Positions 21,022 through 36,337 of a stretch of DNA of 64,000 nt are shown in pieces. The notes below the pieces were generated by a model that did not search any database, was not told where the DNA came from, and saw only the letters and a list, made by a program, of their open reading frames with translations. Source of the stretch: an uncultured Pseudobdellovibrionaceae bacterium (GTDB lineage: Bacteria > Pseudomonadota > Alphaproteobacteria > Micavibrionales > Micavibrionaceae); NCBI GenBank assembly GCA_964520985.1, contig CAZFPB010000002.1, positions 150,115-214,114 of the forward strand, in the 5' to 3' direction. A program made the position numbers and the translations under genes. Position 1 is the first letter of the stretch, and each line of letters begins with the position of its first letter.

Positions 21022-21023
21022 TT

Positions 21024-21452: not shown

Positions 21453-21464
21453 GAGATTTAACCT

Positions 21465-21725
21465 ATGAAAATGCATAAAATAGAATTGTACGTTTTGGAT
21501 TTTGAAGATTATGGGATTGAAGAGTGTACTTCGATATTAGAACACATCGATCCTCACGGAGCTATAGTAAAAGTTAATCCAATTGGTTCTGTTGAGATCG
21601 GTGAATGGCATGATGGCCATGAATTAAATTTCCGTAGTACGGATTATAATAAGTATTTCGCAAAAGCAGATGATGATCGTCGAGTTCAATGGTATCATCG
21701 TTTTTGCAAAAATTCTGAACAATAG
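21465..21725 (+). CDS. hypothetical protein
   Basis: 86 aa. Confidence 0.4.
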   Translation: MKMHKIELYVLDFEDYGIEECTSILEHIDPHGAIVKVNPIGSVEIGEWHDGHELNFRSTDYNKYFAKADDDRRVQWYHRFCKNSEQ

Positions 21726-21726
21726 T

Positions 21727-21856
21727 AAGTGACGATAATCGGATCGTAAAAATAACAGATAGGTTGGTGGTAGGTTCCAATGAGCTTAGTGCTTACGTCC
21801 TCCATATAATGCCTGATGCACTGTTATCGGATAAGGTTCAATTCCTTACGCTTACT
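21727..21856 (+). ncRNA. elongated or interrupted tRNA-like locus (about 130 nt)
   Basis: 5' GTAAGTG pairs with 3' CGCTTAC (one GU) next to a canonical T-arm TAAGG-TTCAATT-CCTTA. D-arm-like CGAT-AATCGG-ATCG. A 6-bp helix TAACAG/CTGTTA encloses about 60 nt. Confidence 0.3.
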
Positions 21857-21993
21857 CGAAGATGTTGCGTAGTGAACGGTTACTTCGACTGTTAATCGAG
21901 AAGAGAAGGTTCGAATCCTTCCATCCCGTAGGGATGTAGTGTAATGGTAGCACTCTAAAATCTCCGTTTGCGTTTTTATCTCATCTTTTTTAT

Positions 21994-22077
21994 AAGTCAG
22001 TAGACTAGCAAGTGTCGCCCTAGTCAGATAGCTCGAAAGAGCTGGAGTTCCAGTAGGTTCGAATCCTACCTGGCTTG
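21994..22077 (+). tRNA. tRNA-like, type-II length (84 nt), anticodon unresolved
   Basis: Acceptor AAGTCAG/CTGGCTT (one GU), T GTAGG-TTCGAAT-CCTAC. Internal 6-bp GACTAG/CTAGTC helix and AGCTC-GAAA-GAGCT hairpin. Confidence 0.3.
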
Positions 22078-22079
22078 CT

Positions 22080-22199
22080 AACGTAATGGTCTAGCGGATA
22101 AGACACTCGTACGAGGGTTGGAAGCTGTTCGATTCAGCTGAATGCACGGTGACCGTAATTCCGCAACGAGAAAGGTACGTTCGAATCGTACTTACGTTT
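22080..22199 (+). ncRNA. elongated tRNA-like RNA (120 nt) with a terminal acceptor stem and two T-arm-like hairpins
   Basis: Ends AACGTAA/TTACGTT pair 7/7. 3' T-arm GTACG-TTCGAAT-CGTAC. Internal AGCTG-TTCGATT-CAGCT. D-loop-like TAGCGGATAA. Confidence 0.35.
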
Positions 22200-22219
22200 C
22201 ATTTATTAAGGATTACATA

Positions 22220-22807
22220 ATGACAGATGTAATTGTTCATAATGCTTATGGCAACATTGACGTATATCCAGCAACTTTAGAACACGCCCTCAAATTAGTT
22301 AATCTGCAAGTGTTTAGTGGTGATTATTCGAATGCTTGTGAATTCTTTGAAAATATAAAAAACAAAATAAACATTAGTGGAGATATGGTATGCAGAGCAA
22401 TACACGACGTGTGTATGTTACCTGTTGATACTCCATCAAAGTATCTAAATGCATTGACAGATGGTAAGTATCGTACCATTACAGCAGATATTAAGAATGA
22501 AACAATAATATATTTGTGGAATCATCAAATTACCATAAAACATCCAACATATAGTGGAATGTTTGGCAGGTTAACTATACTGCAACCTCAACGATCCTTA
22601 ACCTATTTGAAACAGTTTGATCAACAAACAGATTGTTATTTTTATTATCCAGATCAATTAGACCGATATTCGCAATTGCGGTGTATTATTGAAGGAAGAT
22701 GGAAAGAAACAGCTAGTGAAATTAGCAAAATTAAATACATTGTTGAATTTCTGAATGAACATTATTCAAACGATAGTAAATTTTACATTACATCAATACA
22801 GGAATAG
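22220..22807 (+). CDS. hypothetical protein
   Basis: Start moved to ATG 22220 (MTDVIVHNAYG), downstream of the tRNA-like element. Confidence 0.45.
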   Translation: MTDVIVHNAYGNIDVYPATLEHALKLVNLQVFSGDYSNACEFFENIKNKINISGDMVCRAIHDVCMLPVDTPSKYLNALTDGKYRTITADIKNETIIYLWNHQITIKHPTYSGMFGRLTILQPQRSLTYLKQFDQQTDCYFYYPDQLDRYSQLRCIIEGRWKETASEISKIKYIVEFLNEHYSNDSKFYITSIQE

Positions 22808-22809
22808 TT

Positions 22810-23034
22810 ATGTCTTTACAAGATAAATTAAACGAACTTGAACAATTCATTCGTGCTAAAGCTGAAACAGAAACATGGGACGATCAGTTTATTGATAAAG
22901 ATGGTAATTTCACAGATGTTTGTGTATTTGACTTATCGGGTGGTAATGTAGACGATGCATACGAAGGTGGAGCACGTGCAGGCGAATCACGCTTTGCATG
23001 TGAATTACTAGAACGTTTCTTCAAACCAGAGTAA
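22810..23034 (+). CDS. hypothetical small acidic protein
   Basis: 74 aa. Confidence 0.4.
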   Translation: MSLQDKLNELEQFIRAKAETETWDDQFIDKDGNFTDVCVFDLSGGNVDDAYEGGARAGESRFACELLERFFKPE

Positions 23035-23039
23035 CAGTT

Positions 23040-23222
23040 ATGGATATTAGTGTTCAACTAGTAGAAGCACTTGCACAAGAGGCAGGGCTTGACCAATTAT
23101 GTGGTTGGGATGATGATAACAATCCTAAAGATTACTACGAATGTTGGCCGGAAGATCTGCAGAGATTTGCAGTGCTATTGATTGAACATTATAAGCTAAA
23201 AACTGTTGACCTTCCTGCCTAA
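23040..23222 (+). CDS. hypothetical small acidic protein
   Basis: 60 aa. Confidence 0.35.
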   Translation: MDISVQLVEALAQEAGLDQLCGWDDDNNPKDYYECWPEDLQRFAVLLIEHYKLKTVDLPA

Positions 23223-23241
23223 ATAGGTTATAGTGTTATAA

Positions 23242-23496
23242 ATGGTAGTAACTGCAATGGGTTCTAACTGTATGAAAACACTGGATGAGTACAAGCGTCT
23301 TATTGGTTATACGGTTAGAAAGACTTCTCGTAAACCGTTTAAGTCTGGGACCAAGGTAAATACTGTTGCAGGAGTGGTGGTTCATCCGTTTCTGGGTGTA
23401 CCGAGTTTTACGTTTGTTGAGGATGATTCTTATGTCGAATGCCGCCGGTGTCGTTCAGTTGAACAGCAACCAAGAAAAATACTGGATTCCGAGTGA
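23242..23496 (+). CDS. hypothetical protein
   Basis: 84 aa. Confidence 0.35.
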   Translation: MVVTAMGSNCMKTLDEYKRLIGYTVRKTSRKPFKSGTKVNTVAGVVVHPFLGVPSFTFVEDDSYVECRRCRSVEQQPRKILDSE

Positions 23497-23650
23497 CGGT
23501 GATGCACCGCATGCTATTTGCTTTTCTGGATCGGAAGCATTTGGTTTTGGTGCAAATTACATCGACTCGTTTGACGAAAAAGGTAAACGACTGTGTACGT
23601 ACACGCTAAATAGTGATGGTGAGACGTATACCTGTCATCTCATCAACTAA
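23441..23650 (+). CDS. hypothetical protein
   Basis: Start at ATG 23441 with RBS GAGGA; overlaps the upstream ORF by 56 nt in another frame. Confidence 0.35.
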   Translation, partial: AAGVVQLNSNQEKYWIPSDGDAPHAICFSGSEAFGFGANYIDSFDEKGKRLCTYTLNSDGETYTCHLIN

Positions 23651-23656
23651 CTAGTT

Positions 23657-23729
23657 GCCGCACAAACTTTGATTGGTGAAGCCCTTCTTGGTAAGAAGGC
23701 AGAAGACAGTTCGAATCTGTCGTGTGGCA
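23657..23729 (+). tRNA. tRNA-Thr(GGT)
   Basis: Acceptor GCCGCAC/GTGTGGC, D-arm shared with the other Thr genes, anticodon arm CCTTC-TTGGTAA-GAAGG, T GACAG-TTCGAAT-CTGTC. Confidence 0.8.
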
Positions 23730-23734
23730 CAAAT

Positions 23735-23809
23735 GCTCAGTAAACTTTGCTGGTGAAGCCCGCTCTCGTAAAGCGGTTGAAGACAGTTCGAATCTGTCAC
23801 TGAGCTCCA
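23735..23809 (+). tRNA. tRNA-Thr(CGT), CCA encoded
   Basis: Acceptor GCTCAGT/ACTGAGC, anticodon arm CCGCT-CTCGTAA-AGCGG, T GACAG-TTCGAAT-CTGTC, TCCA. Confidence 0.8.
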
Positions 23810-26493: not shown

Positions 26494-26753
26494 TTCCAAT
26501 ACGATTGCGAAACAAGATAACTATATCATGCTATGCGATGGTTAGTGGATTATTTGCAGACATGCATAATCCAAAATGTCGTGGATCTAAGTTTAGTTGG
26601 GATAACTTTGCAGACATGGCTGGCTGTCATTGCGAAGCTAATATATTTGTCCACATACCAGTTCCTGACAAATACAAAACTGCTGTTCAACAAAACGCAA
26701 AAATTCTTGGTCTTACTATTGCTCAAACCCTTGTACAACGGATGACTGAATAA
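26490..26753 (+). CDS. hypothetical protein
   Basis: 87 aa, Cys/His-containing. Confidence 0.35.
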   Translation: MIPIRLRNKITISCYAMVSGLFADMHNPKCRGSKFSWDNFADMAGCHCEANIFVHIPVPDKYKTAVQQNAKILGLTIAQTLVQRMTE

Positions 26754-27385
26754 TGCACTTTGATCACATGTATGGCCGCCTCGAATATGCAATGCATAAC
26801 ATCACTAACCACAACGTCGGTGAAGTTATTGCTGTTGGTGTTCCAAATTACTTCAACGTATATCAAGTACAACAGCATCCTAAAACCAACGAAATGTATT
26901 TAAGTGATTGCAAAGGAACACATAACAATTGGGAACGTAAGATTTACGTTCCCCGTAACTTTTCTTGTATCAAATACGGTTTCGATCTACATGGTGTATT
27001 GGATACGTTTGATCACTATTGCACCATGGCTACCTTGATGAAACGTGCTGGGCATGAAGTTCATGTGATCACAGGGATGAAACAATCTCCTGAGGTTGAA
27101 CACCAACTGAAAAAATTAGGTGTGGAATATACACACTATTTTTCTATTGTTGATTATCTGGAACCGAGTGGAATCGTCACATGGGATAATGGGATGCCAT
27201 GGACTGATGACACCAAAGCGTGGAATGAAGCGAAAGCCCACTATTGCATTGAACACAAAATTGATGTATTGTTTGATGATTCAGAAATTTATCGTCAAGT
27301 GTTTAATGACCTTAATGTACCAACCACATTTTGTTTGGTAAACAATCCGAACAGAAAAATATATGCAACAAGACAACCAAAATAA
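26753..27385 (+). CDS. HAD-superfamily hydrolase-like (possible 5'-nucleotidase)
   Basis: FDLHGVLDTF resembles HAD motif I; VLFDDSE is a motif-IV-like DD. Confidence 0.35.
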   Translation: MHFDHMYGRLEYAMHNITNHNVGEVIAVGVPNYFNVYQVQQHPKTNEMYLSDCKGTHNNWERKIYVPRNFSCIKYGFDLHGVLDTFDHYCTMATLMKRAGHEVHVITGMKQSPEVEHQLKKLGVEYTHYFSIVDYLEPSGIVTWDNGMPWTDDTKAWNEAKAHYCIEHKIDVLFDDSEIYRQVFNDLNVPTTFCLVNNPNRKIYATRQPK

Positions 27386-27403
27386 CAAAAGGATAAAGAT
27401 GTT

Positions 27404-28465
27404 ATGGCAGGTTTACAGAAAAAAGTAATTCAGCGGTATATCAAAGACCGTACTAACTTTTGGGCGATGTCTATTAAGCGTCCTGATTGTTTGAAAGAGA
27501 TTCTCAAGCTGGATTGGGTTGAATCTGCAGATGAAACCAGCGAAGAAGATGAGAAGAAAATTCGTCAATTCCAACAAGACATTATCGACCATATTGTAGT
27601 AACTGGCGGTTGCCTTGTTTCGATGTTGCTTGGTGAAGAAGTCAATGATGTTGATATCTATTTTACCGACCGTGACATTGCTCGTAAGGTAGCTCAATAC
27701 TATCTTAATGTAATGGCAATGGAAGGTGATATTGCTAAAACTTTCCACGTAAGCGACATTGGTGTTAAAGATAGCGAAACTGGCATTGACATCATGATTC
27801 GCAGTCAAGGCGTTGCTGGTCAAGAAATTACTGAGAAGTCATCTCACGAATACCGTTATTTCGAAATGGAAGCGGATAACGTGGTTGAAGATTTCTTTAA
27901 AGCATATGCAAGACAGCGTTCAAAGAAAGACCTTCCTAAGCATTCTGTTGCCTACATGACGTCCAATGCAATTTCATTGGAAAACGGAATCCAACTGATT
28001 TTCCGTTTTGTTGGTAATGTTGACGAAATTCATAAGAATTTTGATTTTATTCACTGCACCAATTATTGGACAATTGGTACTGGGGTTGTTTATCGGGCGG
28101 AAGCACTGCAAGCAATCCTTGAAAAGCGTTTAGTGTATATTGGTTCTCTGTTTCCAGTATCGGCATTGTTCCGTGTTCGTAAATTTATTGGACGTGGTTA
28201 TCGGATTTCTGCAGGTGAGATTGTTAAAATAGCGTTTGATATTTCCAAACTTGACTTGGAAGACGTTACAACGTTACGCCAGCAATTGATTGGATGTGAT
28301 TCTGCGTACTTTAATGAAGTGATTTCTGTAATTAAAGACGGAGTCGCAGGCGGCCGCGCCCTGGATCGCACATATTTGATTGAAGTGTTGGATCGAGTAT
28401 TCAAAGATGAAATTGTTCAAATTGAAACTGATTCGATGCTGAATGACGAAAAAGATGGCGGTTAA
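27404..28465 (+). CDS. Pol-beta-superfamily nucleotidyltransferase (minimal NTase fold), specificity unknown
   Basis: VVTGGCLVSMLLGEEVNDVDIYF fits hG[GS]x9-13Dh[DE]h. A downstream acidic residue lies in TGIDIMIR. 353 aa. Confidence 0.5.
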   Translation: MAGLQKKVIQRYIKDRTNFWAMSIKRPDCLKEILKLDWVESADETSEEDEKKIRQFQQDIIDHIVVTGGCLVSMLLGEEVNDVDIYFTDRDIARKVAQYYLNVMAMEGDIAKTFHVSDIGVKDSETGIDIMIRSQGVAGQEITEKSSHEYRYFEMEADNVVEDFFKAYARQRSKKDLPKHSVAYMTSNAISLENGIQLIFRFVGNVDEIHKNFDFIHCTNYWTIGTGVVYRAEALQAILEKRLVYIGSLFPVSALFRVRKFIGRGYRISAGEIVKIAFDISKLDLEDVTTLRQQLIGCDSAYFNEVISVIKDGVAGGRALDRTYLIEVLDRVFKDEIVQIETDSMLNDEKDGG

Positions 28466-28467
28466 TC

Positions 28468-28848
28468 ATGGCTAACGGAGAACGTGAATTGTTGTTCTCC
28501 GTTACTGCTGCCGATTGTGATTGGTCTTACACGAAAGGTTCTGGTAACGGAGGGCAGAAGAAAAACAAAACCAGTTCTGCTGTCCACTGCAAACATAGAG
28601 CGAGCGGTGCTCGTGGTTATGCTGAAGATTCGAGAAGTCAACGTGAAAATAAACAGTTGGCTTTTGAACGTATGGTCAATACGCCAGAATTTAAAAAATG
28701 GCACCAACTGGAAGTGATGCGAATAACTGGTCAACAAGCTGCAATTGAAGATGCAGTTAATCGTGAAATGAAAAAAATCAAGGTTGAGGTTATTCAAGAT
28801 GGAAAATGGACCGAAGTCGATAGAGACGCTGTTCTTCCAGACGAGTGA
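28468..28848 (+). CDS. GGQ-motif peptidyl-tRNA hydrolase domain protein (RF-1 domain, ArfB/YaeJ-like)
   Basis: YTKGSGNGGQKKNKTSSAVHCKHRASG parallels the SGPGGQxVNKxxSAV catalytic loop of release factors / ArfB. 126 aa with a basic C-terminus. Confidence 0.6.
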   Translation: MANGERELLFSVTAADCDWSYTKGSGNGGQKKNKTSSAVHCKHRASGARGYAEDSRSQRENKQLAFERMVNTPEFKKWHQLEVMRITGQQAAIEDAVNREMKKIKVEVIQDGKWTEVDRDAVLPDE

Positions 28849-28852
28849 GGAC

Positions 28853-29059
28853 ATGTCGACACGTGCGAAAGTGCGTCGTCATCTTATGTATGACTATTTT
28901 GTTCATAAAGATTCCACCACATCTCAATTCTATCTTGATAAACTGGAACGAATGAGTGACGAAACGCTGGAACAGCTTTACGACAAACTGTTCCAGTTTA
29001 AAGGTTTTCAAGAGTGGGTTAAATTCTTACACCAACAATTGGATCAACAAGATGAGTAA
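28853..29059 (+). CDS. hypothetical small protein
   Basis: Start moved to ATG 28853 (RBS GAGGA). Confidence 0.35.
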   Translation: MSTRAKVRRHLMYDYFVHKDSTTSQFYLDKLERMSDETLEQLYDKLFQFKGFQEWVKFLHQQLDQQDE

Positions 29060-29507
29060 CGTCATTTTTCTGGATGTTGATGGTGTAATGGCACCTACCA
29101 AGATGGTATTTCATCCTTCTCATGTAAAAGGATCTGTCATTAATATTTTTGATCCAGTTGCTGTTGGAATGATTAATCAATTGCCGATGGATGTGGGACC
29201 GTGCAGTATTGTACTGACAAGTGTATGGCGTAAACAAGGATTCGATCGTTGTCAGGCTATGTTCTCAATGAACAAAGTAACAGTTCCGTTTCATGAACAA
29301 TGGTGTACAGATCCTACAATGTCAAATCGGACAAGGTCAATCACAGAATGGATTGATCAATATGGTGCTTCAGGTTATCGATATCTGGTAGTAGATGATG
29401 AAGCGTTGGATTGTACTATAGGTCATTTGTTTCTTCGTACTTGTACTGATAACGGATTTATGTTTTCCGATTATGAAGAAATGAGATTAATTTTGGAGAC
29501 ACAATAA
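29052..29507 (+). CDS. HAD-superfamily phosphatase-like protein
   Basis: N-terminal MSNVIFLDVDGVM is a DxDG(T/V) motif I. Confidence 0.5.
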   Translation: MSNVIFLDVDGVMAPTKMVFHPSHVKGSVINIFDPVAVGMINQLPMDVGPCSIVLTSVWRKQGFDRCQAMFSMNKVTVPFHEQWCTDPTMSNRTRSITEWIDQYGASGYRYLVVDDEALDCTIGHLFLRTCTDNGFMFSDYEEMRLILETQ

Positions 29508-30359
29508 ATGGGTTGTTGGAATGAAACTTGTGCCATCACAAATCTGCCAATTCTGTATGGTGAAGCTGTCTATGGGTTAATGTTATCTCAATGGCCTGCT
29601 GATGCGTATTCCAGTCGCGGGTGTCATGCTGGTGATTTTTGGCAATTGTTGCCTTGCATGGTTCAAGGCAATTATGACGATTATGGTCGTGTTGAAGACA
29701 TTGATGATCTTGATCTTGAATTAATCCGTAAACATCAAAGATTGTGTGATATTGATGGTGATAAACTTGAAGATATCACACAAGAATTATTATTCAAGTT
29801 AGAGAAAGATGGTAAATTATTTCATGCAAACATATACGGTTCCGCCCCCCGACTCGTTCAATTTATTATGATCAAGAAGACAGTAATTGATGATATCAAA
29901 TCAAATTTCAAATTGAAGTATCACTATCCGGTCAGAGAGTATACGTACCAACAAATAGTTGATACGATGATTGAGTATTGCAATAACTATGCTCAATCGT
30001 TAAAAGTAGATGATTATAGCGATACATTGTTGAACTATGACCCAAGTATTGGAAGAAAAGTAGATCCATTTGCAAAATCTATTTTACAAAATTGTAGAAG
30101 TAGTGTGATAGATTGGCATCGTGTTGCTAACCAAGATCAAAAGTCTATTGAACGGAATTGTGAATATATCACTTTGAAAGTGTTGTTGGATAATTTACTG
30201 GACGGTAGTCGTCAATTGTGGAGTCCAACAGCAGGTAAAGGCTCGCAGGATACAGAAACTGACATTCACAGATATATTGCTAATTTGGTGTTGAGCCAAG
30301 CTGATATCGTTGATAAACAATCGTGTTATGACGACGAAATGGACGAAGATGATGAGTGA
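29508..30359 (+). CDS. hypothetical protein with acidic C-terminus
   Basis: 283 aa; TAAATG overlap. Confidence 0.45.
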   Translation: MGCWNETCAITNLPILYGEAVYGLMLSQWPADAYSSRGCHAGDFWQLLPCMVQGNYDDYGRVEDIDDLDLELIRKHQRLCDIDGDKLEDITQELLFKLEKDGKLFHANIYGSAPRLVQFIMIKKTVIDDIKSNFKLKYHYPVREYTYQQIVDTMIEYCNNYAQSLKVDDYSDTLLNYDPSIGRKVDPFAKSILQNCRSSVIDWHRVANQDQKSIERNCEYITLKVLLDNLLDGSRQLWSPTAGKGSQDTETDIHRYIANLVLSQADIVDKQSCYDDEMDEDDE

Positions 30360-30681
30360 CAATGATGATTTTGTACAACAAGTGAATCAAGTAATTCACG
30401 ATTCGACTCAACACCTGCGTGATTTATTGACTAAAGTCAATTATCTAACGGCTGAACAAAACATTGACTATTTAAACAAAGTTGGTAATGTATTAACGAA
30501 TATTTGTACAGTTCAACAATCGCTCATTAATCATTTAAATGAGCGAGTAACCAACAAAGATAGAATATTCGAAGAAATCGTTTCTACACTTCGCGTGATG
30601 GCAGATAAGATGAACGACACGGATGACACAGCATCTCGTGCGTTACACATGATTCAAAAATATACAGGAAAACTACCATGA
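30349..30681 (+). CDS. hypothetical protein
   Basis: Start at ATG 30349 (MMSDNDD). Confidence 0.4.
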   Translation: MMSDNDDFVQQVNQVIHDSTQHLRDLLTKVNYLTAEQNIDYLNKVGNVLTNICTVQQSLINHLNERVTNKDRIFEEIVSTLRVMADKMNDTDDTASRALHMIQKYTGKLP

Positions 30682-31070
30682 ACTATCCAAAACAAATTAT
30701 TGTGATTCGAAAGGATCTCAATATGAGAAAAGGTAAAATGGTTTCTCAAGGTGCACATGCATCTATGGGAGCCGTGTTATCTGTAATGCAAAAAGAATAT
30801 CCGGATATGTGGCATTTGGCCATGGATAAACATCCAGCTCTTCAAGAATGGTTGAATGGACCATTCACTAAAATTACTGTGTCAGTTGACAGTGAACAAG
30901 AACTATTGGATCTGCAGGAAAAAGCAAAAGAAGCAGGTTTTATTAATTGTCTGATTACTGACAATGGCACTACTGAGTTCGGTGGCGTTCCGACTAACAC
31001 TGCACTTGCGATTGGACCTGCATACAGTGATGAACTTGCTCCACTGACTGGACATTTGAAACTGCTATGA
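30678..31070 (+). CDS. peptidyl-tRNA hydrolase, PTH2 family
   Basis: QIIVIRKDLNMRKGKMVSQGAHAS matches the PTH2 signature (vvRxDLxMxxGKxaAQxxHA). 130 aa. Confidence 0.6.
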   Translation: MNYPKQIIVIRKDLNMRKGKMVSQGAHASMGAVLSVMQKEYPDMWHLAMDKHPALQEWLNGPFTKITVSVDSEQELLDLQEKAKEAGFINCLITDNGTTEFGGVPTNTALAIGPAYSDELAPLTGHLKLL

Positions 31071-31279
31071 CAATTCCTTCTGATGTATGGATCGAATTCG
31101 ATCATCTTATTTGGCATAGTGGTGAAGTAATTCCCGTTCGAGCGCAAGTTCTGTTAATTGCGCTCGAACGTCGAACGATGCGGGTACGTATGTTTCGAAA
31201 AGATAATGGTGAATATTTCACGACAGTTGATCGTGATGCGGATGTATTTTTTGAAAACTATAGTATAGTGCCCAAGTAA
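31067..31279 (+). CDS. hypothetical small protein
   Basis: 70 aa. Confidence 0.35.
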   Translation: MTIPSDVWIEFDHLIWHSGEVIPVRAQVLLIALERRTMRVRMFRKDNGEYFTTVDRDADVFFENYSIVPK

Positions 31280-31337
31280 CACAACTATAACAGATGTGTT
31301 TTAACCTTTCTAAAAAATCTTTTGGAGAACAAAAACA

Positions 31338-32663
31338 ATGTTCGTTACCACAGTAACTGTTGCACTCATTGGCTTCTTGGTTTGGATGTTGGTGGCATTT
31401 GCACTTCGTAAAGTCGTACCGACTAATGAAGTTCATATTGTCCAATCTGCTAAACAAACAATTTCTTATGGTAAAGACCATGCTGCAGGAAACACTTATT
31501 ACAAGGTTCCAAGTTGGATTCCTCGTTATGGTGTAACCACAATTATGCTTCCTGTTTCCAACTTCGACCAAGACTTGCCTGCGTACGATGCGTATGACCG
31601 TGGGCGCGTTCCGTTCGTCGTTGATATCAAAGCATTCTTCCGAATCGACAATCCAGAAATGGCTGCGCAGCGGGTGTCGTCTTTCAATGAACTATTGGAA
31701 CAACTGCGTGCAATTCTTCAAGGTGCTATTCGTAGTATTCTGGCATCTAAGGATATTGAAGAAATCCTTCAAGGTCGCAGTGAAATTGGTACAATGTTTA
31801 CTGAGGAAGTTGATGAACAACTGAAACAGTGGGGTGTTAGCACTGTCAAAAACATTGAACTAATGGACATTCGTGACTCAGCGGGTTCGCAAGTTATTGC
31901 GAATATCATGGAGAAGAAAAAGTCTCTGATTGAAAAAGAAAGCCGTATTGAAGTGGCAAATAACAAAAAAGAAGCAAGCATTGCTGAAATTAGTGCAGCT
32001 CGCGACACCGAAATTCAACGACAAGCTGCCGCTCAGCAAATCGGTGAACGTACTGCTCAGAAAGACCAAGCAATTGGTATTGCAAATGAGCAGGCTCAGC
32101 AGAACATTAAAGAGCAGCAGAAAGTAACTACCGAAAAAGAAATTGCAGTTGTTAAAGTTGCTGAAACTGGTCGTGCTCAGGTTCAACGTGAAGTGCAAGT
32201 TATTGCTGCTAATCAACAACGCGAAACCGAAGTTATTAAAGCTGAAGGTCAGAAGCAAACTACCGTTCTGGTTGCTGAAGGTAATCTGCAAAGCACTCGA
32301 CTGGAAGCTGAAGGTATTCAAGCAGAAGGTGTGGCTCGTGCTGATGCTGAGAAAGCAATGCAACTGGCACCTGTTGAAGCGCAGATCGTTCTTGCGAAAG
32401 AAATTGGTGAAAACCAAGGTTACCAGCAATATCTGATTAGCGTCCGCACGATCGAAAAAGATCAAGTTGTTGGTATCGAACAAGCCAAAGCTCTGTCTGA
32501 TGCAGACATCAAAGTTATCGCAAACAGCGGTGATGTTAACAGCGGCATGAACAGCGTGATGGATCTGCTGTCTGCCAAAGGTGGAACTGCTCTGGGTGCT
32601 GCTGTGGAAGCATTCAAACAGACTCCTGCTGGTGAAGCCTTGCTTAACAACATCGGTAAATAA
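31338..32663 (+). CDS. SPFH/band-7 (flotillin/YqiK-like) membrane protein
   Basis: N-terminal TM helix (VTVALIGFLVWMLVAFAL). SPFH-like core (RVPFVVDIKAFFRIDNPEMAAQRV). A long Ala/Gln/Glu coiled-coil and a C-terminal Gly/Ala tail. 441 aa. Confidence 0.55.
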   Translation: MFVTTVTVALIGFLVWMLVAFALRKVVPTNEVHIVQSAKQTISYGKDHAAGNTYYKVPSWIPRYGVTTIMLPVSNFDQDLPAYDAYDRGRVPFVVDIKAFFRIDNPEMAAQRVSSFNELLEQLRAILQGAIRSILASKDIEEILQGRSEIGTMFTEEVDEQLKQWGVSTVKNIELMDIRDSAGSQVIANIMEKKKSLIEKESRIEVANNKKEASIAEISAARDTEIQRQAAAQQIGERTAQKDQAIGIANEQAQQNIKEQQKVTTEKEIAVVKVAETGRAQVQREVQVIAANQQRETEVIKAEGQKQTTVLVAEGNLQSTRLEAEGIQAEGVARADAEKAMQLAPVEAQIVLAKEIGENQGYQQYLISVRTIEKDQVVGIEQAKALSDADIKVIANSGDVNSGMNSVMDLLSAKGGTALGAAVEAFKQTPAGEALLNNIGK

Positions 32664-32693
32664 CTCTCCTGGTTGACCTGTAGTTAAAAAGAA

Positions 32694-32718
32694 GGGACAG
32701 TAAAATGTCCCTTTTTTC
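32694..32718 (+). terminator. rho-independent terminator
   Basis: GGGACA-GTAAAA-TGTCCC followed by TTTTTTCG. Confidence 0.7.
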
Positions 32719-32755
32719 GTTTTAACGACATTATAGTTTCGATAAGGTGCTCTAA

Positions 32756-33142
32756 ATGACAATCACTGTACCTATTTTGCCGGTTGATACTCCTACGATT
32801 AACAATCGGATTTATACAACTGAAGCTGTGGAACAAGCATTACAGAAAGTGAAAGAGCCAGTATTTGGTGGATTTGTTAATGATTATGAAGGCATTGATA
32901 TCGCTATAGAAAATTATGCATTTCGTGCATCAAATCTTAGAATTCACGATGGAAATGTTATTGCTGAAATTGAAATTCTTAACACACCGAAAGGTTTGGT
33001 ATTAGAAGATTTGCTGAATAGTGTTTGTCCAATGAGATTTGCAGCAGCAGGTACATGTAGAATTGAGAATCAACAGATAACCGAATACGAAATCCGTACT
33101 GTACAATTAGTTGCTGAGGGCGTATTTGAAGAAGGAAATTAA
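32756..33142 (+). CDS. hypothetical protein
   Basis: 128 aa. Confidence 0.4.
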   Translation: MTITVPILPVDTPTINNRIYTTEAVEQALQKVKEPVFGGFVNDYEGIDIAIENYAFRASNLRIHDGNVIAEIEILNTPKGLVLEDLLNSVCPMRFAAAGTCRIENQQITEYEIRTVQLVAEGVFEEGN

Positions 33143-33143
33143 T

Positions 33144-34166
33144 ATGGATAAGTTATTAACACGTGATCAGTTTCGAACTCAGGTATTCGAAAGGGATAAA
33201 CATAAGTGCGTGTTTTGTGACAACCCTGCAGTAGATGCGCATCACATTATGGAACGTAGATTATGGCCTGATGGTGGTTATTATCTATCTAATGGTGCAA
33301 GTGTTTGTCAAACACATCACATTATGTGTGAGACGACGGAAATTTCACTAGATGACGTTCGTGAAGCGTGTGGAATTCTTAAACCAATCATTCCGCCACA
33401 TTTGTATGGTGATCAGCCATATGACAAATGGGGCAATCCTATTCTTGCAAATGGGCAACGAGTAATTGGTGAATTGTTCTTTGACGAAAGCGTTCAAAAA
33501 ATTCTCGGTCAAGGTAAAGTTCTTGATCTGTTTACCCATTATGTCAAATATCCAAGAACCCATCATTTGCACTGGTCGGAAAATGTTAATGACGATGATC
33601 GTGTAATTGAATCGTTAAAACATTTTGAAGGAGAACGAGTTATTGTCACCACTAAGATGGATGGTGAAAGTACTACGATGTACACCGACTATATACATGC
33701 TCGCAGTGTTGACGGTCGTTCTCACCCATCACGAGATTATGTCAAACAACTGTGGAGCAGGTTTGCACACGATATTCCTGAACGGTGGCGAATTTGTGGT
33801 GAGAATCTGTATGCTCGTCACTCAATTACATATGATGACCTTCCAAGCTATTTGATGGGTTTTTCTGTATGGAATGAACGAAACGTTGCGTTGTCGTGGG
33901 ATGACACTGTCGAATGGTTTGAGTTACTTGGAATTGAATGTGTTCCTGTATTGTATGATGGTATCTGGAATGAAACTACTATTAAGCAGTTGTGGAATTC
34001 ATCGATGTGGGACAATTGCGAAGGATATGTAGTTCGAGTAGCTGATGAGATTACATACGGGGACTTTCGTCATAAAGTCGGCAAGTTTGTAAGGAAAGAT
34101 CACATTCAAACGATTAAACATTGGATGTATGGACAACCTATTGTTCCTAATAAATTGAGGAAGTAG
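33144..34166 (+). CDS. HNH-nuclease-domain / RNA-ligase (nucleotidyltransferase KxDG) fusion protein
   Basis: Start at ATG 33144 (RBS AAGGAA). N-terminal CVFCDNPAVDAHHIMERRLWPDGGYYLSNGASVCQTHH is an HNH motif. Central VIVTTKMDGEST is the ligase motif I (KxDG). 341 aa. Confidence 0.5.
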   Translation: MDKLLTRDQFRTQVFERDKHKCVFCDNPAVDAHHIMERRLWPDGGYYLSNGASVCQTHHIMCETTEISLDDVREACGILKPIIPPHLYGDQPYDKWGNPILANGQRVIGELFFDESVQKILGQGKVLDLFTHYVKYPRTHHLHWSENVNDDDRVIESLKHFEGERVIVTTKMDGESTTMYTDYIHARSVDGRSHPSRDYVKQLWSRFAHDIPERWRICGENLYARHSITYDDLPSYLMGFSVWNERNVALSWDDTVEWFELLGIECVPVLYDGIWNETTIKQLWNSSMWDNCEGYVVRVADEITYGDFRHKVGKFVRKDHIQTIKHWMYGQPIVPNKLRK

Positions 34167-34168
34167 TA

Positions 34169-34597
34169 ATGCTGTGTATAAACTGTGGCGGAACTCTCTG
34201 TACAACTGTAGACAGTGTTAAACAGACATCACTGTTACTTGGCTGTTTGTTAACTGATCCTGTTGAAGTCGAAAAGTGCATGAACTGTGACAAAATTGTA
34301 TTTCCGTACTATTCAGCAAAACAGGTGGGTGAATTCGTACGACACGCGGAACAAAAAGCAATTGAACAACTGCCAATTGGCGAATTTATTACGATTAAAC
34401 AGGTTAGTGAAATTCTTGAAATTTCTATCGAGAAAATTCGAGATGATAAACGAATTTCACGTGGATTTATCATTCAGCATAAAGTTGGACCAGTAACACT
34501 TTATTTCCGACCATCAGTTGAACGATATAAACAAATTGGTGATGGTAGGATCCTTTTACGGAAGACATCAATCAATGAACGTGGGTATCTACCATAA
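34169..34597 (+). CDS. hypothetical protein with N-terminal Cys4 zinc ribbon
   Basis: CINCGG...CMNCDK; 142 aa. Confidence 0.4.
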   Translation: MLCINCGGTLCTTVDSVKQTSLLLGCLLTDPVEVEKCMNCDKIVFPYYSAKQVGEFVRHAEQKAIEQLPIGEFITIKQVSEILEISIEKIRDDKRISRGFIIQHKVGPVTLYFRPSVERYKQIGDGRILLRKTSINERGYLP

Positions 34598-34784
34598 TAA
34601 TTTAGGATCTGGGGATTGGATCAAGGTTATTGCAACTAAAAACGGCAAACAAACAATTCTGTTTGAAGGCCATCGTTTAATTGCAGGTGATCTACGTTGG
34701 ATCCTCACTTCAGTAATGAGTATGGGTCCAATTGAAACAGTAATGAATTTTCAAATGACTGACGAAGAAATCAATAACATATAA
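34575..34784 (+). CDS. possible small protein (start uncertain)
   Basis: ORF 34518-34784 overlaps the upstream gene; an internal ATG at 34575 reduces the overlap. Confidence 0.25.
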   Translation: MNVGIYHNNLGSGDWIKVIATKNGKQTILFEGHRLIAGDLRWILTSVMSMGPIETVMNFQMTDEEINNI

Positions 34785-34794
34785 GGAAAACAAA

Positions 34795-36312
34795 ATGGCA
34801 AATAAAAAACTCAACCCAAAAGGTAAAGATATTAAAGGTAATATCGTTGCGGTTGCTGCGAAACATGATCGCCAGTTGGCTCGTTCTGGTAATGGAAATC
34901 TTCAGTTTGTAAAAACTGCTCGTTCCGATTTGTATGCTATCATTACGTCTACGCTGTATGGACGTGATACGTATTATAATTCTGGTGACCAAATCGTCGC
35001 TCGACTGAAACAACAGATCGACGCTGTGGTTAATGAAGAAGATGGGCCAGACTTTATTGCAAACTTGATTATTCATGCTCGTACAGAAATGCACATTCGA
35101 ACGATTCCGATCGTTGCAACTGTGCATCTTGCAAAGTCATTGCGTGATCAAGGTAAGACGTTTGAATCAATGCGTCGTCTTGTATGTGATGTTATTACTC
35201 GTGCAGATCAGATTACTGATATGTATGCGTATTCGCTAACCGTATTCGGCGACAAGAAAAAAGTGCCAATGGCAATTAAGCGTGGTGTTGCTGACGCATT
35301 TAACAAATTTGATGAATATCAATTTGCTAAGTACAACCGCAGCAATGAATTGAAAATGCGTGACGTATTACGAATTGTTCACCCTGTTGCTGCAAACGTG
35401 GCACAAGGTGAGATTTTTAGTCGTATTATGTCTGATACGTTAGCTACTCCATATACGTGGGAAACTCAGTTGAGCGAAAATGGTCAGCGTGATCCCAAAG
35501 AACGTAAATCGCTTGACGAATTATGGACAGAGCTGTTCACGTCTGGAAAGATGGGTTATATGGCTCAGTTGCGTAATCTGCGTAACTTGGAACAGAATGT
35601 ATCTCATCAACCGACATTGAAAGCAGTTGCAAGTGTGATTGCAGATCCAGATCGTGTTGAAAAATCGAAACAATTGCCTTTTGATTTTACAGAGGCATAT
35701 AAAGCAGTAAGTAATTCGACCTTGAAGACTGCTGTTTCACGTGCGATCGATCACAGTGTTGGTAATATTCCAGCACTTGGTAAAAACGTATGGATCATCG
35801 TTGATGCGTCTGGATCGATGAGTGGATTTCCACGTGAAATGTCAACGATGTTCGCCGCCGCGATTTACAAGAATGCGACGTTCAATCCTGAAGTTGAGAA
35901 TCATGCGCTAACGGTTTTTGGATCGAAAGCACATATGGTTACTGATTTGGATTGCAACCAATCCATTTTTCATATTGCACAGAAGTTTCAGAAAAACTTG
36001 GGAGCAACAGATTTTGACGAAGCGTTACAATTAAAATCAAAACTTGGTTTTAATCCTGACACAGTAATTGTGTTCACGGACAATGAAATTGATGATATGC
36101 CATATGGCAATCTTGCTTATGCATTTGATGATAAATGTGTCAAAATTGCTGTTAACTTGGAAGCGTCGGTAACGACTCCTTTCATTCGTGAAAATGGATG
36201 GTACGAATTGGCAGGTTGGTCTACTAACATGTTTAAGTTCGTTCGAGCTATTCGTGACAAACGAACAGCAGTTGATGTTCTAAGTGTTCCATACGGAACA
36301 GTGCAATATTAA
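34795..36312 (+). CDS. rsr: Ro60/Rsr ortholog (TROVE domain + von Willebrand factor A domain)
   Basis: C-terminal vWA MIDAS motifs: WIIVDASGSMSG (DxSxS), LGATDFDEAL, VIVFTDNEIDD (FTDNE identical to human Ro60). N-terminal helical region with LYGRDTYY (compare GSEGGTYY) and LRIVHPVAA (compare RIHPFHIL). 505 aa. Confidence 0.75.
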   Translation: MANKKLNPKGKDIKGNIVAVAAKHDRQLARSGNGNLQFVKTARSDLYAIITSTLYGRDTYYNSGDQIVARLKQQIDAVVNEEDGPDFIANLIIHARTEMHIRTIPIVATVHLAKSLRDQGKTFESMRRLVCDVITRADQITDMYAYSLTVFGDKKKVPMAIKRGVADAFNKFDEYQFAKYNRSNELKMRDVLRIVHPVAANVAQGEIFSRIMSDTLATPYTWETQLSENGQRDPKERKSLDELWTELFTSGKMGYMAQLRNLRNLEQNVSHQPTLKAVASVIADPDRVEKSKQLPFDFTEAYKAVSNSTLKTAVSRAIDHSVGNIPALGKNVWIIVDASGSMSGFPREMSTMFAAAIYKNATFNPEVENHALTVFGSKAHMVTDLDCNQSIFHIAQKFQKNLGATDFDEALQLKSKLGFNPDTVIVFTDNEIDDMPYGNLAYAFDDKCVKIAVNLEASVTTPFIRENGWYELAGWSTNMFKFVRAIRDKRTAVDVLSVPYGTVQY

Positions 36313-36337
36313 AAAAGGGGCTTAAGCCCCTTTTTTA
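36311..36337 (+). terminator. rho-independent terminator (bidirectional: A-run / GGGGC-TTAA-GCCCC / T-run)
   Basis: AAAAAAGGGGCTTAAGCCCCTTTTTT sits between convergent genes. Confidence 0.75.

What the first reader, a model, noticed from the sequence alone, without database searches (positions are those of the whole stretch)
26753..36312. RNA-repair / ribosome-rescue island culminating in a phage Ro60 (Rsr) ortholog
Within 10 kb on the + strand lie two HAD-type hydrolases (26753, 29052) and a Pol-beta-type nucleotidyltransferase (27404). A GGQ-motif RF-1-domain protein of the ArfB/YaeJ type (28468, a stalled-ribosome peptidyl-tRNA hydrolase) and a PTH2-type peptidyl-tRNA hydrolase (30678) follow. 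Then come a flotillin/SPFH membrane protein (31338), an HNH-RNA-ligase fusion (33144) and a 505-aa TROVE+vWA protein. The last retains the Ro60 MIDAS motifs, including FTDNE (34795). Together with the CCA enzyme, the tRNA island and a second RNA ligase (43161), this reads as a coherent toolkit for surviving host attacks on translation (anticodon nucleases, tRNA or rRNA cleavage, ribosome stalling). Ro60/Rsr normally works with a Y RNA and a 3'-5' exoribonuclease, and here a DEDDh exonuclease is encoded at 54046. The natural prediction is that a Y-RNA-like partner is encoded in this genome, with the elongated tRNA-like RNAs as candidates. ArfB-like and PTH2 genes together in a phage, next to Rsr, is to my knowledge not a described module.
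Basis: partly seen in the sequence, partly recalled or inferred. Interest (0 to 1): 0.8.

Follow-up and report, generated by a model that had tools for sequence, protein, structure and literature searches.

The report
Jumbo-phage Ro60 island and its Y RNA
A ~330-kb phage carries a real cluster of RNA-repair and ribosome-rescue genes that ends in a Ro60/Rsr gene, and the tRNA-like Y RNA that Ro60 should bind lies 12.8 kb upstream among the phage tRNAs; every part belongs to a family already known from phages, so this is a well-stocked example, not a new system.

Summary
Profile searches confirm RF-1/GGQ (28468), HAD_SAK_2 (29052), PTH2 (30678), SPFH (31338), HNH-RNA ligase (33144) and TROVE+vWA Ro60/Rsr (34795). 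Three readings need correction:
- 27404 is a Gad2-family (anti-Gabija) nucleotidyltransferase. Its model looks like class II CCA-adding enzymes.
- 26753 is HAD-like only weakly, at fold level.
- The GGQ protein is not an ArfB orthologue. It lacks the basic tail and is closest to PrfH/RF2 domain 3 and to the mycobacteriophage "RF-1" proteins.

The predicted Y RNA exists at 21858-21988 (+), inside the tRNA island. It scores 31 bits against Rfam YrlA (threshold 69). It scores 98 bits (E 6e-22) against a covariance model I built only from RNAs beside rsr in other phages. That structure has strong covariation support.

The island is not a conserved module. RF-1 and HNH-ligase homologues elsewhere lack Rsr, PTH2 and SPFH neighbours. 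Only two linkages recur: Rsr with Y RNA and tRNA arrays, and Rsr-PTH2-ligase in the nearest relative.

Phage Ro60, phage YrlA, jumbo-phage PTH2 and ligases, and the RF-1 plus Ro60 pairing in Bxz1-like phages are all in the literature or in public phage records. Verdict: new member of known kinds; reader partly supported.

The parts
21858..21988 (+). YrlA-class Y RNA, the predicted Rsr partner. Layout: stem A 21858-21864/21982-21988; 5' motif UUGCGUAG 21865-21872; stem B 21872-21879/21964-21971; UUAC 21880-21883; anticodon-arm-like 'V' hairpin 21884-21900 (loop CUGUUAA); T arm 21905-21921; closed 6-bp acceptor CAUCCC-GUA-GGGAUG 21922-21936; UA; D arm 21939-21953; T-run to 21991.
   Evidence: Rfam YrlA gives 31.4 bits, full length, below the gathering score of 69. 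Leave-out covariance model R2 gives 98.2 bits, E 6e-22, and it is the only such hit in the window. Family structure: 94.5% of cells paired, 22 of 27 pairs with compensatory changes. The re-permuted head is called tRNA-Asn(GUU) by ARAGORN.
13542..23809 (+). tRNA island that contains the Y RNA
   Evidence: ARAGORN tRNAs here and Rfam tRNA gives 12-15 hits. Intron-like and elongated tRNA-like elements lie at 17786-17927 and 22080-22200.
7265..8353 (+). tRNA nucleotidyltransferase (CCA-adding enzyme)
   Evidence: phrog_2244, E 1.6e-98
26753..27385 (+). Protein of uncertain function with a possible HAD-like Rossmannoid C-terminal domain (invariant DxHGVxDT, K161, D175)
   Evidence: No Pfam or NCBIfam hit. 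phrog_13623, function unknown. AlphaFold model pLDDT 74; top Foldseek hits are HAD phosphatases (AphA, YrbI, T4 Pnkp) at E 4e-4 to 2e-3 with TM about 0.35.
27404..28465 (+). Gad2-family Pol-beta-type nucleotidyltransferase with class II CCA-adding-enzyme-like architecture
   Evidence: Precomputed Pfam PF26128 Gad2 for this protein and all 120 listed homologues. tblastn hits the SPbetaL7 gene annotated Gad2, E 5e-4. G68, G69, D82 and D84 are invariant. AlphaFold pLDDT 80.5; the top 27 PDB matches are all CCA-adding enzymes, tRNA nucleotidyltransferases or close bacterial relatives of the same fold. The local Pfam scan did not reproduce the Gad2 hit.
28468..28848 (+). Stand-alone GGQ (RF-1 domain) protein of 126 aa, a putative ribosome-dependent peptidyl-tRNA hydrolase
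   Evidence: PF00472, E 4e-13. phrog_3122, E 1e-25. Best NCBIfam and PDB neighbours are PrfH. 41-47% identical to the 'RF-1 peptide chain release factor' of 206 mycobacteriophage records.
29052..29507 (+). HAD_SAK_2 phosphatase, a candidate RNA 3'-end-healing enzyme
   Evidence: PF18143, E 3.9e-15, covering 134 of 139 profile positions. DVDGV motif.
30678..31070 (+). PTH2 peptidyl-tRNA hydrolase
   Evidence: PF01981, E 1.6e-32. TIGR00283 gives 94.6 bits against a cutoff of 82. 52-59% identical to phage genes annotated as peptidyl-tRNA hydrolase.
31338..32663 (+). SPFH/Band-7 membrane protein with an N-terminal transmembrane helix and a coiled-coil tail; no evidence ties it to RNA repair
   Evidence: PF01145, E 2.2e-18. 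No PHROG or PADLOC hit.
33144..34166 (+). HNH nuclease fused to an ATP-dependent RNA ligase
   Evidence: PF09414, E 3.3e-30. phrog_24030, E 7.9e-142, full length. HNH PHROGs at about 1e-6. 58-64% identical across the full length in jumbo phages RsoM2USA, SCTP-2 and CcrBL9.
34795..36312 (+). Ro60/Rsr orthologue (TROVE ring + vWA with MIDAS residues)
   Evidence: TROVE E 1.3e-23 and VWA_2 E 5.6e-7. phrog_850 covers residues 34-496. Aligns over residues 33-486 with the solved Thermus phage phiLo Ro60, 9KOP/9L5Y, E 6.5e-16.
36310..36337 (.). Bidirectional intrinsic terminator that closes the + strand block just after rsr
   Evidence: 12-bp stem with T-runs on both sides
43161..44348 (+). Second RNA ligase (PHA02142 OB domain + RNA_ligase)
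   Evidence: Pfam E 4.6e-18 and 2.3e-16. phrog_968, E 4.8e-48. Its homologue lies directly downstream of rsr in the nearest relative L001.

Best explanation
This is the accessory, host-takeover region of a roughly 330-kb jumbo phage. Several independently mobile genes of known families have accumulated in one co-directional block that ends in rsr.

**Shown**
- The family identity of each gene.
- A YrlA-class Y RNA in the tRNA island.
- In other phages this RNA family sits next to rsr.

**Inferred**
1. The Y RNA is probably made from the tRNA-island transcript; tRNA-like elements flank it closely.
2. Its 5' GCGUAG motif and the flanking helices bind the Ro60 ring.
3. Its tRNA-shaped head recruits a tRNA-binding or exonuclease partner. 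Host PNPase is the most likely partner, as in Deinococcus, Salmonella and phage phiLo. The complex then degrades damaged structured RNA or restrains its degradation during infection.
4. When host nucleases cut tRNAs or rRNA and ribosomes stall, the GGQ protein and PTH2 release and recycle peptidyl-tRNA.
5. The HAD_SAK phosphatase heals 3' ends, the two ligases reseal RNA, the CCA enzyme restores 3' ends, and the phage tRNAs replace losses.
6. The Gad2-like nucleotidyltransferase is a separate counter-defence protein.

The genes share a theme and probably a transcript. They are not a co-inherited machine.
For: **Gene identities.** Domain calls.

**Rsr.** It aligns end to end with the solved phage phiRo60.

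**Y RNA**
- Full-length YrlA hit below threshold.
- Model R2 was built without the window or its nearest relative. It gives 98.2 bits, E 6e-22, with every modelled pair formed.
- Structure counts on 19 members: 94.5% of cells paired against 35-50% when partners are slid, and 22 of 27 pairs have compensatory changes.
- In a search by RNA motif alone, 11 of the 13 retrieved loci that have this fold also carry a TROVE gene. Where both were measured, the RNA lies 54-703 nt from rsr.
- The same RNA lies beside Ro60 genes in cultured Streptomyces, Brevundimonas, Microcystis and Mycobacterium phages.

**Linkage.** PTH2, Rsr and the PHA02142-type ligase lie within about 6 kb of one another in the nearest relative, which shares 51% Rsr identity.

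**Block structure.** The terminator directly after rsr closes the block.

Against: - No expression, binding or activity data exist for any component.
- The Y RNA is 12.8 kb from rsr, unlike most family members.
- Its motif is CGUA, not CGAA. An A-to-U change at that position weakened phiLo Ro60 binding about four-fold (PMC12135203).
- A 126-aa GGQ domain has no obvious ribosome-recruiting element.
- No polynucleotide kinase, RtcB or PNPase was found among the ORFs I scanned. Not every ORF in the window was scanned.
- SPFH, 26753 and five small ORFs in the island have no assignable role.
- The Gad2 assignment rests on a precomputed Pfam hit that my local scan did not reproduce, plus a weak pairwise match.
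Confidence: 0.7

Rival explanations
1. The island is one co-evolved rescue-and-repair machine. In this view the GGQ protein, PTH2, the HAD phosphatase, the HNH-ligase and the Rsr-Y RNA complex act in sequence on the same stalled, damaged ribosome or tRNA, much like the bacterial PrfH-RtcB pair.
For: - Five RNA- or translation-related genes sit within 8 kb in one co-directional, tightly packed block that ends at a terminator.
- PTH2, Rsr and a ligase also lie together in L001.
- One RF-1 homologue (L143) lies directly next to an RNA ligase. In three or four related loci an RF-1 homologue lies within about 2-4 kb of a P-loop kinase-like ORF and a KxDG ligase-like ORF.
- The GGQ domain is closest to PrfH.
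Against: - 15 RF-1 loci and 9 HNH-ligase loci from other viral contigs show no Rsr, PTH2, SPFH or HAD_SAK_2 within 10 kb.
- In mycobacteriophage Cane17 the RF-1 gene sits between the DNA polymerase and recombinase genes, 12 kb from Ro60.
- The block also holds unrelated genes: Gad2-like, DUF488 and SPFH.
Confidence: 0.15
2. The GGQ protein serves translation termination or stop-codon recoding, working alongside the phage's suppressor tRNA, and does not rescue damaged ribosomes.
For: - The window encodes a tRNA with a CUA anticodon at 42409-42481.
- The relative L001 encodes a UUA-anticodon tRNA.
- From my own knowledge, recoding phages are known to carry release-factor genes.
Against: - The protein has only the GGQ domain. 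It lacks the codon-reading domains 2 and 4 of RF1 and RF2: alignments cover RF2 residues about 233-313 only.
- Every ORF examined in the window reads through under the standard code.
Confidence: 0.08
3. The element at 21858-21988 is only a rearranged or decayed tRNA gene in a messy tRNA island and has no relation to Rsr.
For: - It lies among several aberrant tRNA-like elements.
- It is 12.8 kb from rsr.
- Its Rfam YrlA score is below threshold.
- Its single-sequence folding energy is not unusual (z = -1.26).
Against: - It matches, over its full length and with every modelled pair formed, a model trained only on RNAs that lie beside rsr in other phages.
- The parts that are not tRNA-like also match: the GCGUAG motif, stem B, UUAC, the 3' CG...UUAUCU segment and the terminal stem.
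- The nearest relative keeps three copies.
Confidence: 0.04

Closest known systems
Thermus phage phiLo phiRo60 with Yrl1/Yrl2 (PDB 9KOP, 9L5Y; PMC12135203)
   Same: Both are phage-encoded TROVE+vWA rings of about 500 aa, and phiRo60 is the best solved match over residues 33-486. Both have phage-encoded partner RNAs with a CG(A/U)A motif in a stem-bulge-stem.
   Different: - The two proteins are distant in sequence (phmmer E 6.5e-16 over residues 33-486).
- The phiLo Yrl RNAs lie directly upstream of the gene and are described as simple stem-bulge-stem RNAs.
- Here the RNA is 12.8 kb away and has a full tRNA-shaped head and a CGUA motif.
YrlA, Rfam RF02553 (Chen et al. 2014, PMC4201824; Wang et al. 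2018, bioRxiv 10.1101/312249)
   Same: - Same order of parts: Ro-binding stem, V region, T arm, closed acceptor stem, UA, D arm.
- A 5' motif resembling GNCGAAN0-1G.
- Found near rsr, and already reported in phages (mycobacteriophage ET08).
   Different: - The window copy and the eight other members tested from eight loci score 28-48 bits against RF02553 (gathering score 69), so standard annotation misses them.
- The V region is a 5-bp, 7-nt-loop hairpin followed by an AGGUC-type variable loop. The head is therefore a complete circularly permuted cloverleaf.
- S. Typhimurium YrlA lacks an anticodon loop.
Bixzunavirus (cluster C, Bxz1-like) mycobacteriophages, e.g. Cane17
   Same: The genome combines a short RF-1-domain protein (41-43% identical), a Ro60 orthologue with an upstream YrlA-like RNA, and many tRNAs.
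   Different: - The genes are dispersed: RF-1 lies beside the DNA polymerase, 12 kb from Ro60.
- No PTH2, HNH-ligase or SPFH lies in the 40 kb examined.
Jumbo-phage RNA-repair and ribosome-rescue complement (Iyer et al. 2021, PMC7824862)
   Same: The set matches: tRNA arrays, ATP-grasp RNA ligases, ROT/TROVE with a tRNA-like partner, PTH2 and NAD salvage (NAMPT at 790). The interpretation as a counter to tRNA-cleaving defences is also the same.
   Different: The paper mentions a release factor only once, and I did not read that passage, so I cannot say whether it covers stand-alone GGQ proteins. The tight clustering seen here is a feature of this genome.
PrfH-RtcB rescue-repair pair of bacteria (PDB 9MOR, 7SA4; the biology is from my own knowledge)
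   Same: PrfH has the GGQ domain most similar to this protein, and a GGQ hydrolase is encoded near an RNA ligase.
   Different: - The phage protein lacks the roughly 100-residue N-terminal domain of PrfH: 48.9 bits against the 166.65 cutoff.
- The nearby ligases are ATP-dependent Rnl-type enzymes, not RtcB.
Gad2, Gabija anti-defence protein 2 (Yirmiya et al., bioRxiv 10.1101/2023.05.01.538930)
   Same: 27404 carries Pfam PF26128 (Gad2) in the precomputed annotation and matches the SPbetaL7 Gad2 gene. Both are predicted nucleotidyltransferases.
   Different: - Only 27% identical over 153 residues, E 5e-4.
- Anti-Gabija activity is untested for this clade.
- Some homologues are annotated as tRNA nucleotidyltransferase, and the model resembles CCA-adding enzymes.

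Membership tests
Ro60/Rsr (TROVE + vWA) | TROVE domain profile match above threshold | tested here: met
   PF05731, 84.3 bits against a cutoff of 23, E 1.3e-23
Ro60/Rsr (TROVE + vWA) | C-terminal vWA domain with MIDAS residues (DxSxS, T, D) | tested here: met
   VWA_2, 30.6 bits against a cutoff of 27. DASGS 337, GATDF 403, FTDNE 427.
Ro60/Rsr (TROVE + vWA) | Full-length similarity to a structurally verified Ro60 ring | tested here: met
   Residues 33-486 align with 25-482 of phiLo phiRo60 (9L5Y/9KOP), E 6.5e-16. No structure model was made here.
Ro60/Rsr (TROVE + vWA) | Bacterial Rsr equivalog model (NF041674) | tested here: not met
   24 bits against a cutoff of 900. It belongs to a distant phage clade and is not a bacterial Rsr equivalog.
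Ro60/Rsr (TROVE + vWA) | Binds a Y RNA | not testable with these tools
   A cognate-type RNA is encoded. Binding needs EMSA or RIP.
YrlA (RF02553) | Reaches the Rfam gathering score | tested here: not met
   31.4 bits against 69. Relatives score 28-48 bits.
YrlA (RF02553) | Module order: stem, V, T arm, closed acceptor stem, UA, D arm, stem, supported by covariation | tested here: met
   94.5% of cells paired and 22 of 27 pairs compensatory. Full-length alignment to the YrlA model.
YrlA (RF02553) | 5' GNCGAAN0-1G Ro-binding motif | tested here: inconclusive
   The window has UGCGUAG, which is CGUA in place of CGAA. Relatives have CGUAG, CGAAG, GCAAAG or GGUGAGG.
YrlA (RF02553) | Encoded next to rsr | tested here: not met
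   It lies 12,806 nt upstream in the window. Most family members lie 54-703 nt away, and L001 and L004 are also kilobases away.
ArfB (YaeJ) | GGQ catalytic motif in an RF-1 domain | tested here: met
   PF00472, E 4e-13; GGQ at residues 28-30
ArfB (YaeJ) | ArfB equivalog model and a basic C-terminal tail that probes the empty mRNA channel | tested here: not met
   NF006718 gives 31.7 bits against a cutoff of 100 and aligns only residues 11-43. Residues 70-126 hold 9 K/R against 12 D/E. The ArfB structure 2JY9 is only a marginal hit, E 0.0085.
PrfH | PrfH equivalog model (N-terminal recognition domain + GGQ domain) | tested here: not met
   TIGR03072 gives 48.9 bits against a cutoff of 166.65 and matches only profile positions 106-188. 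It is the best PDB neighbour, 9MOR, E 3.8e-9.
PTH2 | Family profile above the curated cutoff over the full length | tested here: met
   PF01981, 112.6 against 23. TIGR00283, 94.6 against 82. NF003314 falls below its cutoff (101.6 against 126).
HAD_SAK_2 | Profile match and DxDxT/V motif I | tested here: met
   PF18143, 56.9 against 27.5, covering 134 of 139 positions. DVDGV at residue 8.
HAD superfamily (26753) | HAD profile match and a catalytic DxD motif I | tested here: not met
   No Pfam, NCBIfam or PADLOC hit. The motif is an invariant DxH. Only a marginal HAD fold match, E 4e-4 and TM about 0.36.
Gad2 (PF26128) | Pfam family match | tested here: inconclusive
   The precomputed annotation lists PF26128 for this protein and all 120 listed homologues. 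The local Pfam scan returned no such hit. tblastn to SPbetaL7 Gad2 gives E 5e-4 over 153 aa.
Gad2 (PF26128) | Inhibits Gabija defence | not testable with these tools
   Needs infection assays on Gabija-positive hosts.
Pol-beta-type nucleotidyltransferase | hG[GS]x9-13Dx[DE] motif and nucleotidyltransferase fold | tested here: met
   GGCLVSMLLGEEVNDVD at residue 68, with G68, G69, D82 and D84 invariant in 36 homologues. The top 27 Foldseek PDB hits are CCA-adding enzymes, tRNA nucleotidyltransferases or close relatives, at probability 0.9-1.0 but TM only about 0.3.

The most novel reading that the evidence does not exclude
The phage Y RNA head is a complete permuted tRNA with an intact anticodon arm; here the anticodon is GUU (Asn-type). 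It may not only tether Rsr. It could act as a decoy or sensor for anticodon nucleases or other tRNA-directed defences. It could also dock the phage's tRNA enzymes onto the Ro60 ring: the CCA enzyme, the CCA-enzyme-like Gad2 homologue, the ligases and PTH2. That would make the island a single Ro60-centred tRNA triage platform. A corollary is that Gad2-family proteins would act on tRNA-like RNAs.
Probability: 0.1. Interest if true: 0.7.

Novelty: new member of a known kind. Interest (0 to 1): 0.35.

Why it matters
It gives a fully specified Ro60-Y RNA pair in a jumbo phage, ready for RIP-seq, EMSA and deletion tests.

It also exposes an annotation gap. Phage YrlA-type RNAs fall below the Rfam threshold in every member tested. 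They are unannotated, or called as tRNAs, in the cultured-phage records I examined.

The complete cloverleaf head, embedded in tRNA arrays, fits the published idea that YrlA arose from dimeric tRNA transcripts.

The island is a convenient natural set of candidate counter-measures to tRNA- and ribosome-targeting defences, but it is not a new type of system.

Tried and rejected
- **Source phage.** Megablast of the island against 50,697 phage records found nothing. The source phage has no close cultured relative.
- **Rfam at gathering thresholds.** This found only tRNAs in the window and in eight Rsr loci. Metazoan Y_RNA gave no hit even at E <= 10.
- **First DNA pattern.** A pattern spanning T arm to D arm found nothing in viral contigs. 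The pattern CGTAG-N7-TTACTTCGNC worked, but about 110 of 126 loci were chance hits and had to be filtered by fold.
- **Single-sequence folding of the Y RNA.** Not significant (z = -1.26). The support comes from covariation.
- **Flanking ORFs.** Pfam on ten flanking ORFs gave nothing. PADLOC on the island hit only the DUF488 protein.
- **Conserved neighbourhood of RF-1 and HNH-ligase homologues.** No linkage to Rsr, PTH2 or SPFH. Clustering of RF-1 neighbours showed a kinase-like and a ligase-like ORF only in three or four related loci.
- **DEDDh exonuclease as Rsr partner.** Rejected; it looks like a DNA polymerase proofreading subunit.
- **A novel "anticodon arm".** I first took the hairpin to be a new feature. 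Chen 2014 already describes a "V arm" in YrlA, so I lowered the novelty rating.

Full report
**Observation**

- Profile searches confirm six of the eight calls outright: RF-1/GGQ, HAD_SAK_2, PTH2, SPFH/Band_7, RNA ligase with an N-terminal HNH, and TROVE+vWA.
- The expected catalytic or metal-site motifs are present: GGQ 28-30, DVDGV, KMDG 171, and DASGS/GATDF/FTDNE.
- The CCA enzyme at 7265 and the second ligase at 43161 are also real.
- The genes are tightly packed and co-directional. The block ends with rsr and a strong bidirectional terminator at 36310-36337.
- The exact proteins occur on a 330,120-bp NCBI contig and in a Logan assembly. No cultured phage is close at the DNA level.

**Corrections to individual genes**

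27404:
- It has the Pol-beta nucleotidyltransferase motif, with G68, G69, D82 and D84 invariant in 36 homologues.
- The precomputed Pfam annotation places it, and all 120 listed homologues, in PF26128 "Gad2".
- It gives a weak direct match to the gene annotated Gad2 in Bacillus phage SPbetaL7 (E 5e-4). That is the experimentally defined Gabija anti-defence protein, predicted to be a nucleotidyltransferase (bioRxiv 10.1101/2023.05.01.538930).
- My local Pfam scan did not reproduce the hit, so I treat family membership as probable, not proven.
- An AlphaFold model (pLDDT 80.5) matches class II CCA-adding enzymes, tRNA nucleotidyltransferases and close relatives of the same fold in all of its top 27 PDB hits. 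The TM-scores are modest, about 0.3.

26753:
- It has no HMM support.
- Its conserved core (DxHGVxDT, K161, D175) and a marginal fold match to HAD phosphatases, including T4 Pnkp, make "HAD-like" possible. The canonical second Asp is replaced by an invariant His.

28468:
- It is not an ArfB orthologue. The ArfB model aligns only residues 11-43, the C-terminal part is net acidic, and the best neighbours are PrfH and domain 3 of RF2.
- It is the short "RF-1 peptide chain release factor" annotated in 206 Mycobacterium phage records, at 41-47% identity.

54046:
- It is a DnaQ-like exonuclease that PHROGs groups with DNA polymerase exonuclease subunits.
- Nothing links it to Rsr.

**The Y RNA**

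The window has no metazoan-type Y RNA. A permissive Rfam scan gave one full-length YrlA match at 21873-21973 (31.4 bits, gathering score 69).

A scan for the diagnostic order "T arm, closed acceptor hairpin, D arm" found that element and similar ones beside Rsr homologues fetched from viral contigs.

They share this layout:
1. terminal stem A
2. 5' UGGCGUAG
3. 8-bp stem B
4. UUAC
5. a 5-bp hairpin with a 7-nt loop
6. an AGGUC-type variable loop
7. T arm
8. acceptor stem closed by a short loop
9. UA
10. D arm
11. linker
12. stem B 3' strand
13. CG..UGUUCC or UUAUCU
14. stem A 3' strand

Searching viral contigs with the RNA motif alone returned 126 loci:
- 16 had a T loop in the right place.
- After dropping non-family matches, the window and loci fetched earlier through Rsr, 13 motif-retrieved loci showed the fold.
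- 11 of these 13 encode a TROVE protein in the stretch held. Where I measured the gap, the RNA lies 54-703 nt from the gene.

On a 19-member alignment:
- The proposed helices are 94.5% paired, against 35-50% when the partners are slid.
- 22 of 27 pairs show compensatory changes.

A covariance model built without the window or its nearest relative gave these results:
- It scores the window element 98.2 bits, E 6e-22, full length, with every modelled pair formed. It is the only such hit in 64 kb.
- It finds three copies in the nearest relative L001.
- It finds unannotated copies next to the Ro60 genes of Streptomyces phage Alone3, Brevundimonas phage Kabachok (three in tandem), Microcystis phage Mvi-JY20 and Mycobacterium phage Cane17.
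- One Alone3 copy overlaps an annotated "tRNA-Ser".

All tested members score only 28-48 bits against Rfam YrlA, so routine annotation misses them.

**Is the RNA architecture new?**

I first read the hairpin before the T arm as a novel anticodon arm.
- Re-permuting the head in silico makes ARAGORN call a tRNA in 14 of 19 members. The window copy becomes tRNA-Asn(GUU). The head is therefore a complete circularly permuted cloverleaf.
- However, Chen et al. 2014 already describe a "V arm" in YrlA alignments that include a mycobacteriophage.
- Wang et al. 2018 note variable V and AC regions and cite a dimeric-tRNA origin model.

The phage RNAs fit that model well, because some sit inside tRNA arrays with spacers of 2-6 nt. 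This refines the published description and does not add a new class.

The 5' motif is CGUA, not CGAA. In phiLo an A-to-U change at that position lowers affinity about four-fold. The motif may have co-varied with the protein; I did not test this.

The window copy has a 6-bp acceptor stem. [quoted passage not shown] Several relatives have 7-bp stems closed by UUCG, and one has a CCA enzyme gene just upstream.

**Is the island a module?**

- Homologues of the GGQ protein (15 loci, 53-72% identity) and of the HNH-ligase (9 loci, 37-65%) have no Rsr, PTH2, SPFH or HAD_SAK_2 within 10 kb.
- In the nearest relative L001 (Rsr 51% identical), PTH2, a NADAR protein, Rsr and the PHA02142-type ligase lie together. 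The Y RNAs are 8.5-9.4 kb upstream among tRNAs.
- In Cane17 the RF-1 gene lies in the replication cluster, 12 kb from Ro60.
- The HNH-ligase and PTH2 occur at 52-64% identity in the cultured jumbo phages RsoM2USA and SCTP-2. The ligase also occurs in the CcrBL9 group, and PTH2 in Xoo-sp13 and Atu_ph07.

The recurrent linkages are Rsr with Y RNA and tRNA arrays (strong) and Rsr with PTH2 and a ligase (one relative). The rest is a thematic accumulation in an accessory region. That region also holds a Gad2-like gene and a DUF488 gene, and a paralogous family of at least 11 members flanks it.

**Mechanism**

Shown: the identities above, the RNA family and its association with rsr.

Inferred from the named literature:
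- Rsr binds the Y RNA through the 5' motif and helices.
- The tRNA-shaped head recruits a partner, most plausibly host PNPase.
- The complex either specialises PNPase for structured RNA (PMC4201824) or attenuates it (PMC12135203).
- The GGQ protein and PTH2 hydrolyse peptidyl-tRNA from stalled ribosomes.
- HAD_SAK_2 and the ligases heal and seal cut RNA, and the CCA enzyme and phage tRNAs restore the pool. This is the scheme of Iyer et al. 2021 (PMC7824862).
- How a bare 126-aa GGQ domain reaches the ribosome is unknown.

**Verdict**

Its best prediction, the Y RNA, is fulfilled.
- Each component and the overall concept are already in the literature or in public phage records.
- I rate it a new member of known kinds, interest 0.35.
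- Practical value: the Ro60-Y RNA pair is now fully specified for experiments, and the annotation gap for phage YrlA RNAs is documented.

Noticed in passing
window 17786-17927 and 22080-22200; also 21763-21855 and 22003-22080: Elongated tRNA-like elements. With introns allowed, ARAGORN calls tRNA-Asn(AUU) with a 67-nt insert and tRNA-Arg(CCG) with a 48-nt insert in the anticodon loop. The second insert holds its own T-arm-like hairpin. Two further partial tRNA-like elements flank the Y RNA; the upstream one lies only about 2 nt from it.
   Followed up: partly
window 42409-42481; L001 1475-1549: Suppressor-type tRNAs. The window has a CUA (amber) anticodon. The nearest relative has a UUA (ochre) anticodon directly after its Y RNAs. 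I did not check for stop-codon recoding in late genes.
   Followed up: no
L132 3763-3908 (Streptomyces phage Alone3); L005 9544-9617; L011 3426-3497; L030 3198-3277: Parts of Y-like RNAs are annotated, or called by ARAGORN, as ordinary tRNAs. One example is 'tRNA-Ser(gct)' directly upstream of the Ro-like gene in Alone3.
   Followed up: partly
L133 5340-5974 (Brevundimonas phage Kabachok): Three tandem Y-like RNAs fill an unannotated 1-kb gap directly upstream of the Ro60 homologue, which the record calls a hypothetical protein.
   Followed up: partly
window 24894-26092 (+), 36654-39227 (-), 48087-49498, 59890-62440: A paralogous family of at least 11 proteins of about 200-230 aa (22-36% pairwise identity, no Pfam hit) flanks the island on both sides and recurs across the window.
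   Followed up: partly
window 26089-26493: A DUF488-N3a protein lies near the upstream edge of the island (a small ORF, 26490-26753, separates it from 26753). It matches the PADLOC candidate defence component PDC-M45C, E 1e-10.
   Followed up: no
window 790-2217, 41575-42396, 58489-59382: Other auxiliary genes: nicotinamide phosphoribosyltransferase, a DDAH/arginine-deiminase-like amidinotransferase, and a QueE-like radical SAM enzyme.
   Followed up: no
L136-L138, about 1.5-4 kb downstream of the RF-1 homologue; L143 4194-5135: In some relatives the short GGQ protein lies near a P-loop kinase-like ORF and a KxDG ligase-like ORF. In L143 it lies directly next to a PHA02142-type RNA ligase. This echoes the PrfH-RtcB pairing.
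   Followed up: partly
window 31878-32762 (-): A 294-aa antisense ORF lies inside the SPFH gene. It is probably an artefact of the low-complexity coiled-coil region.
   Followed up: no
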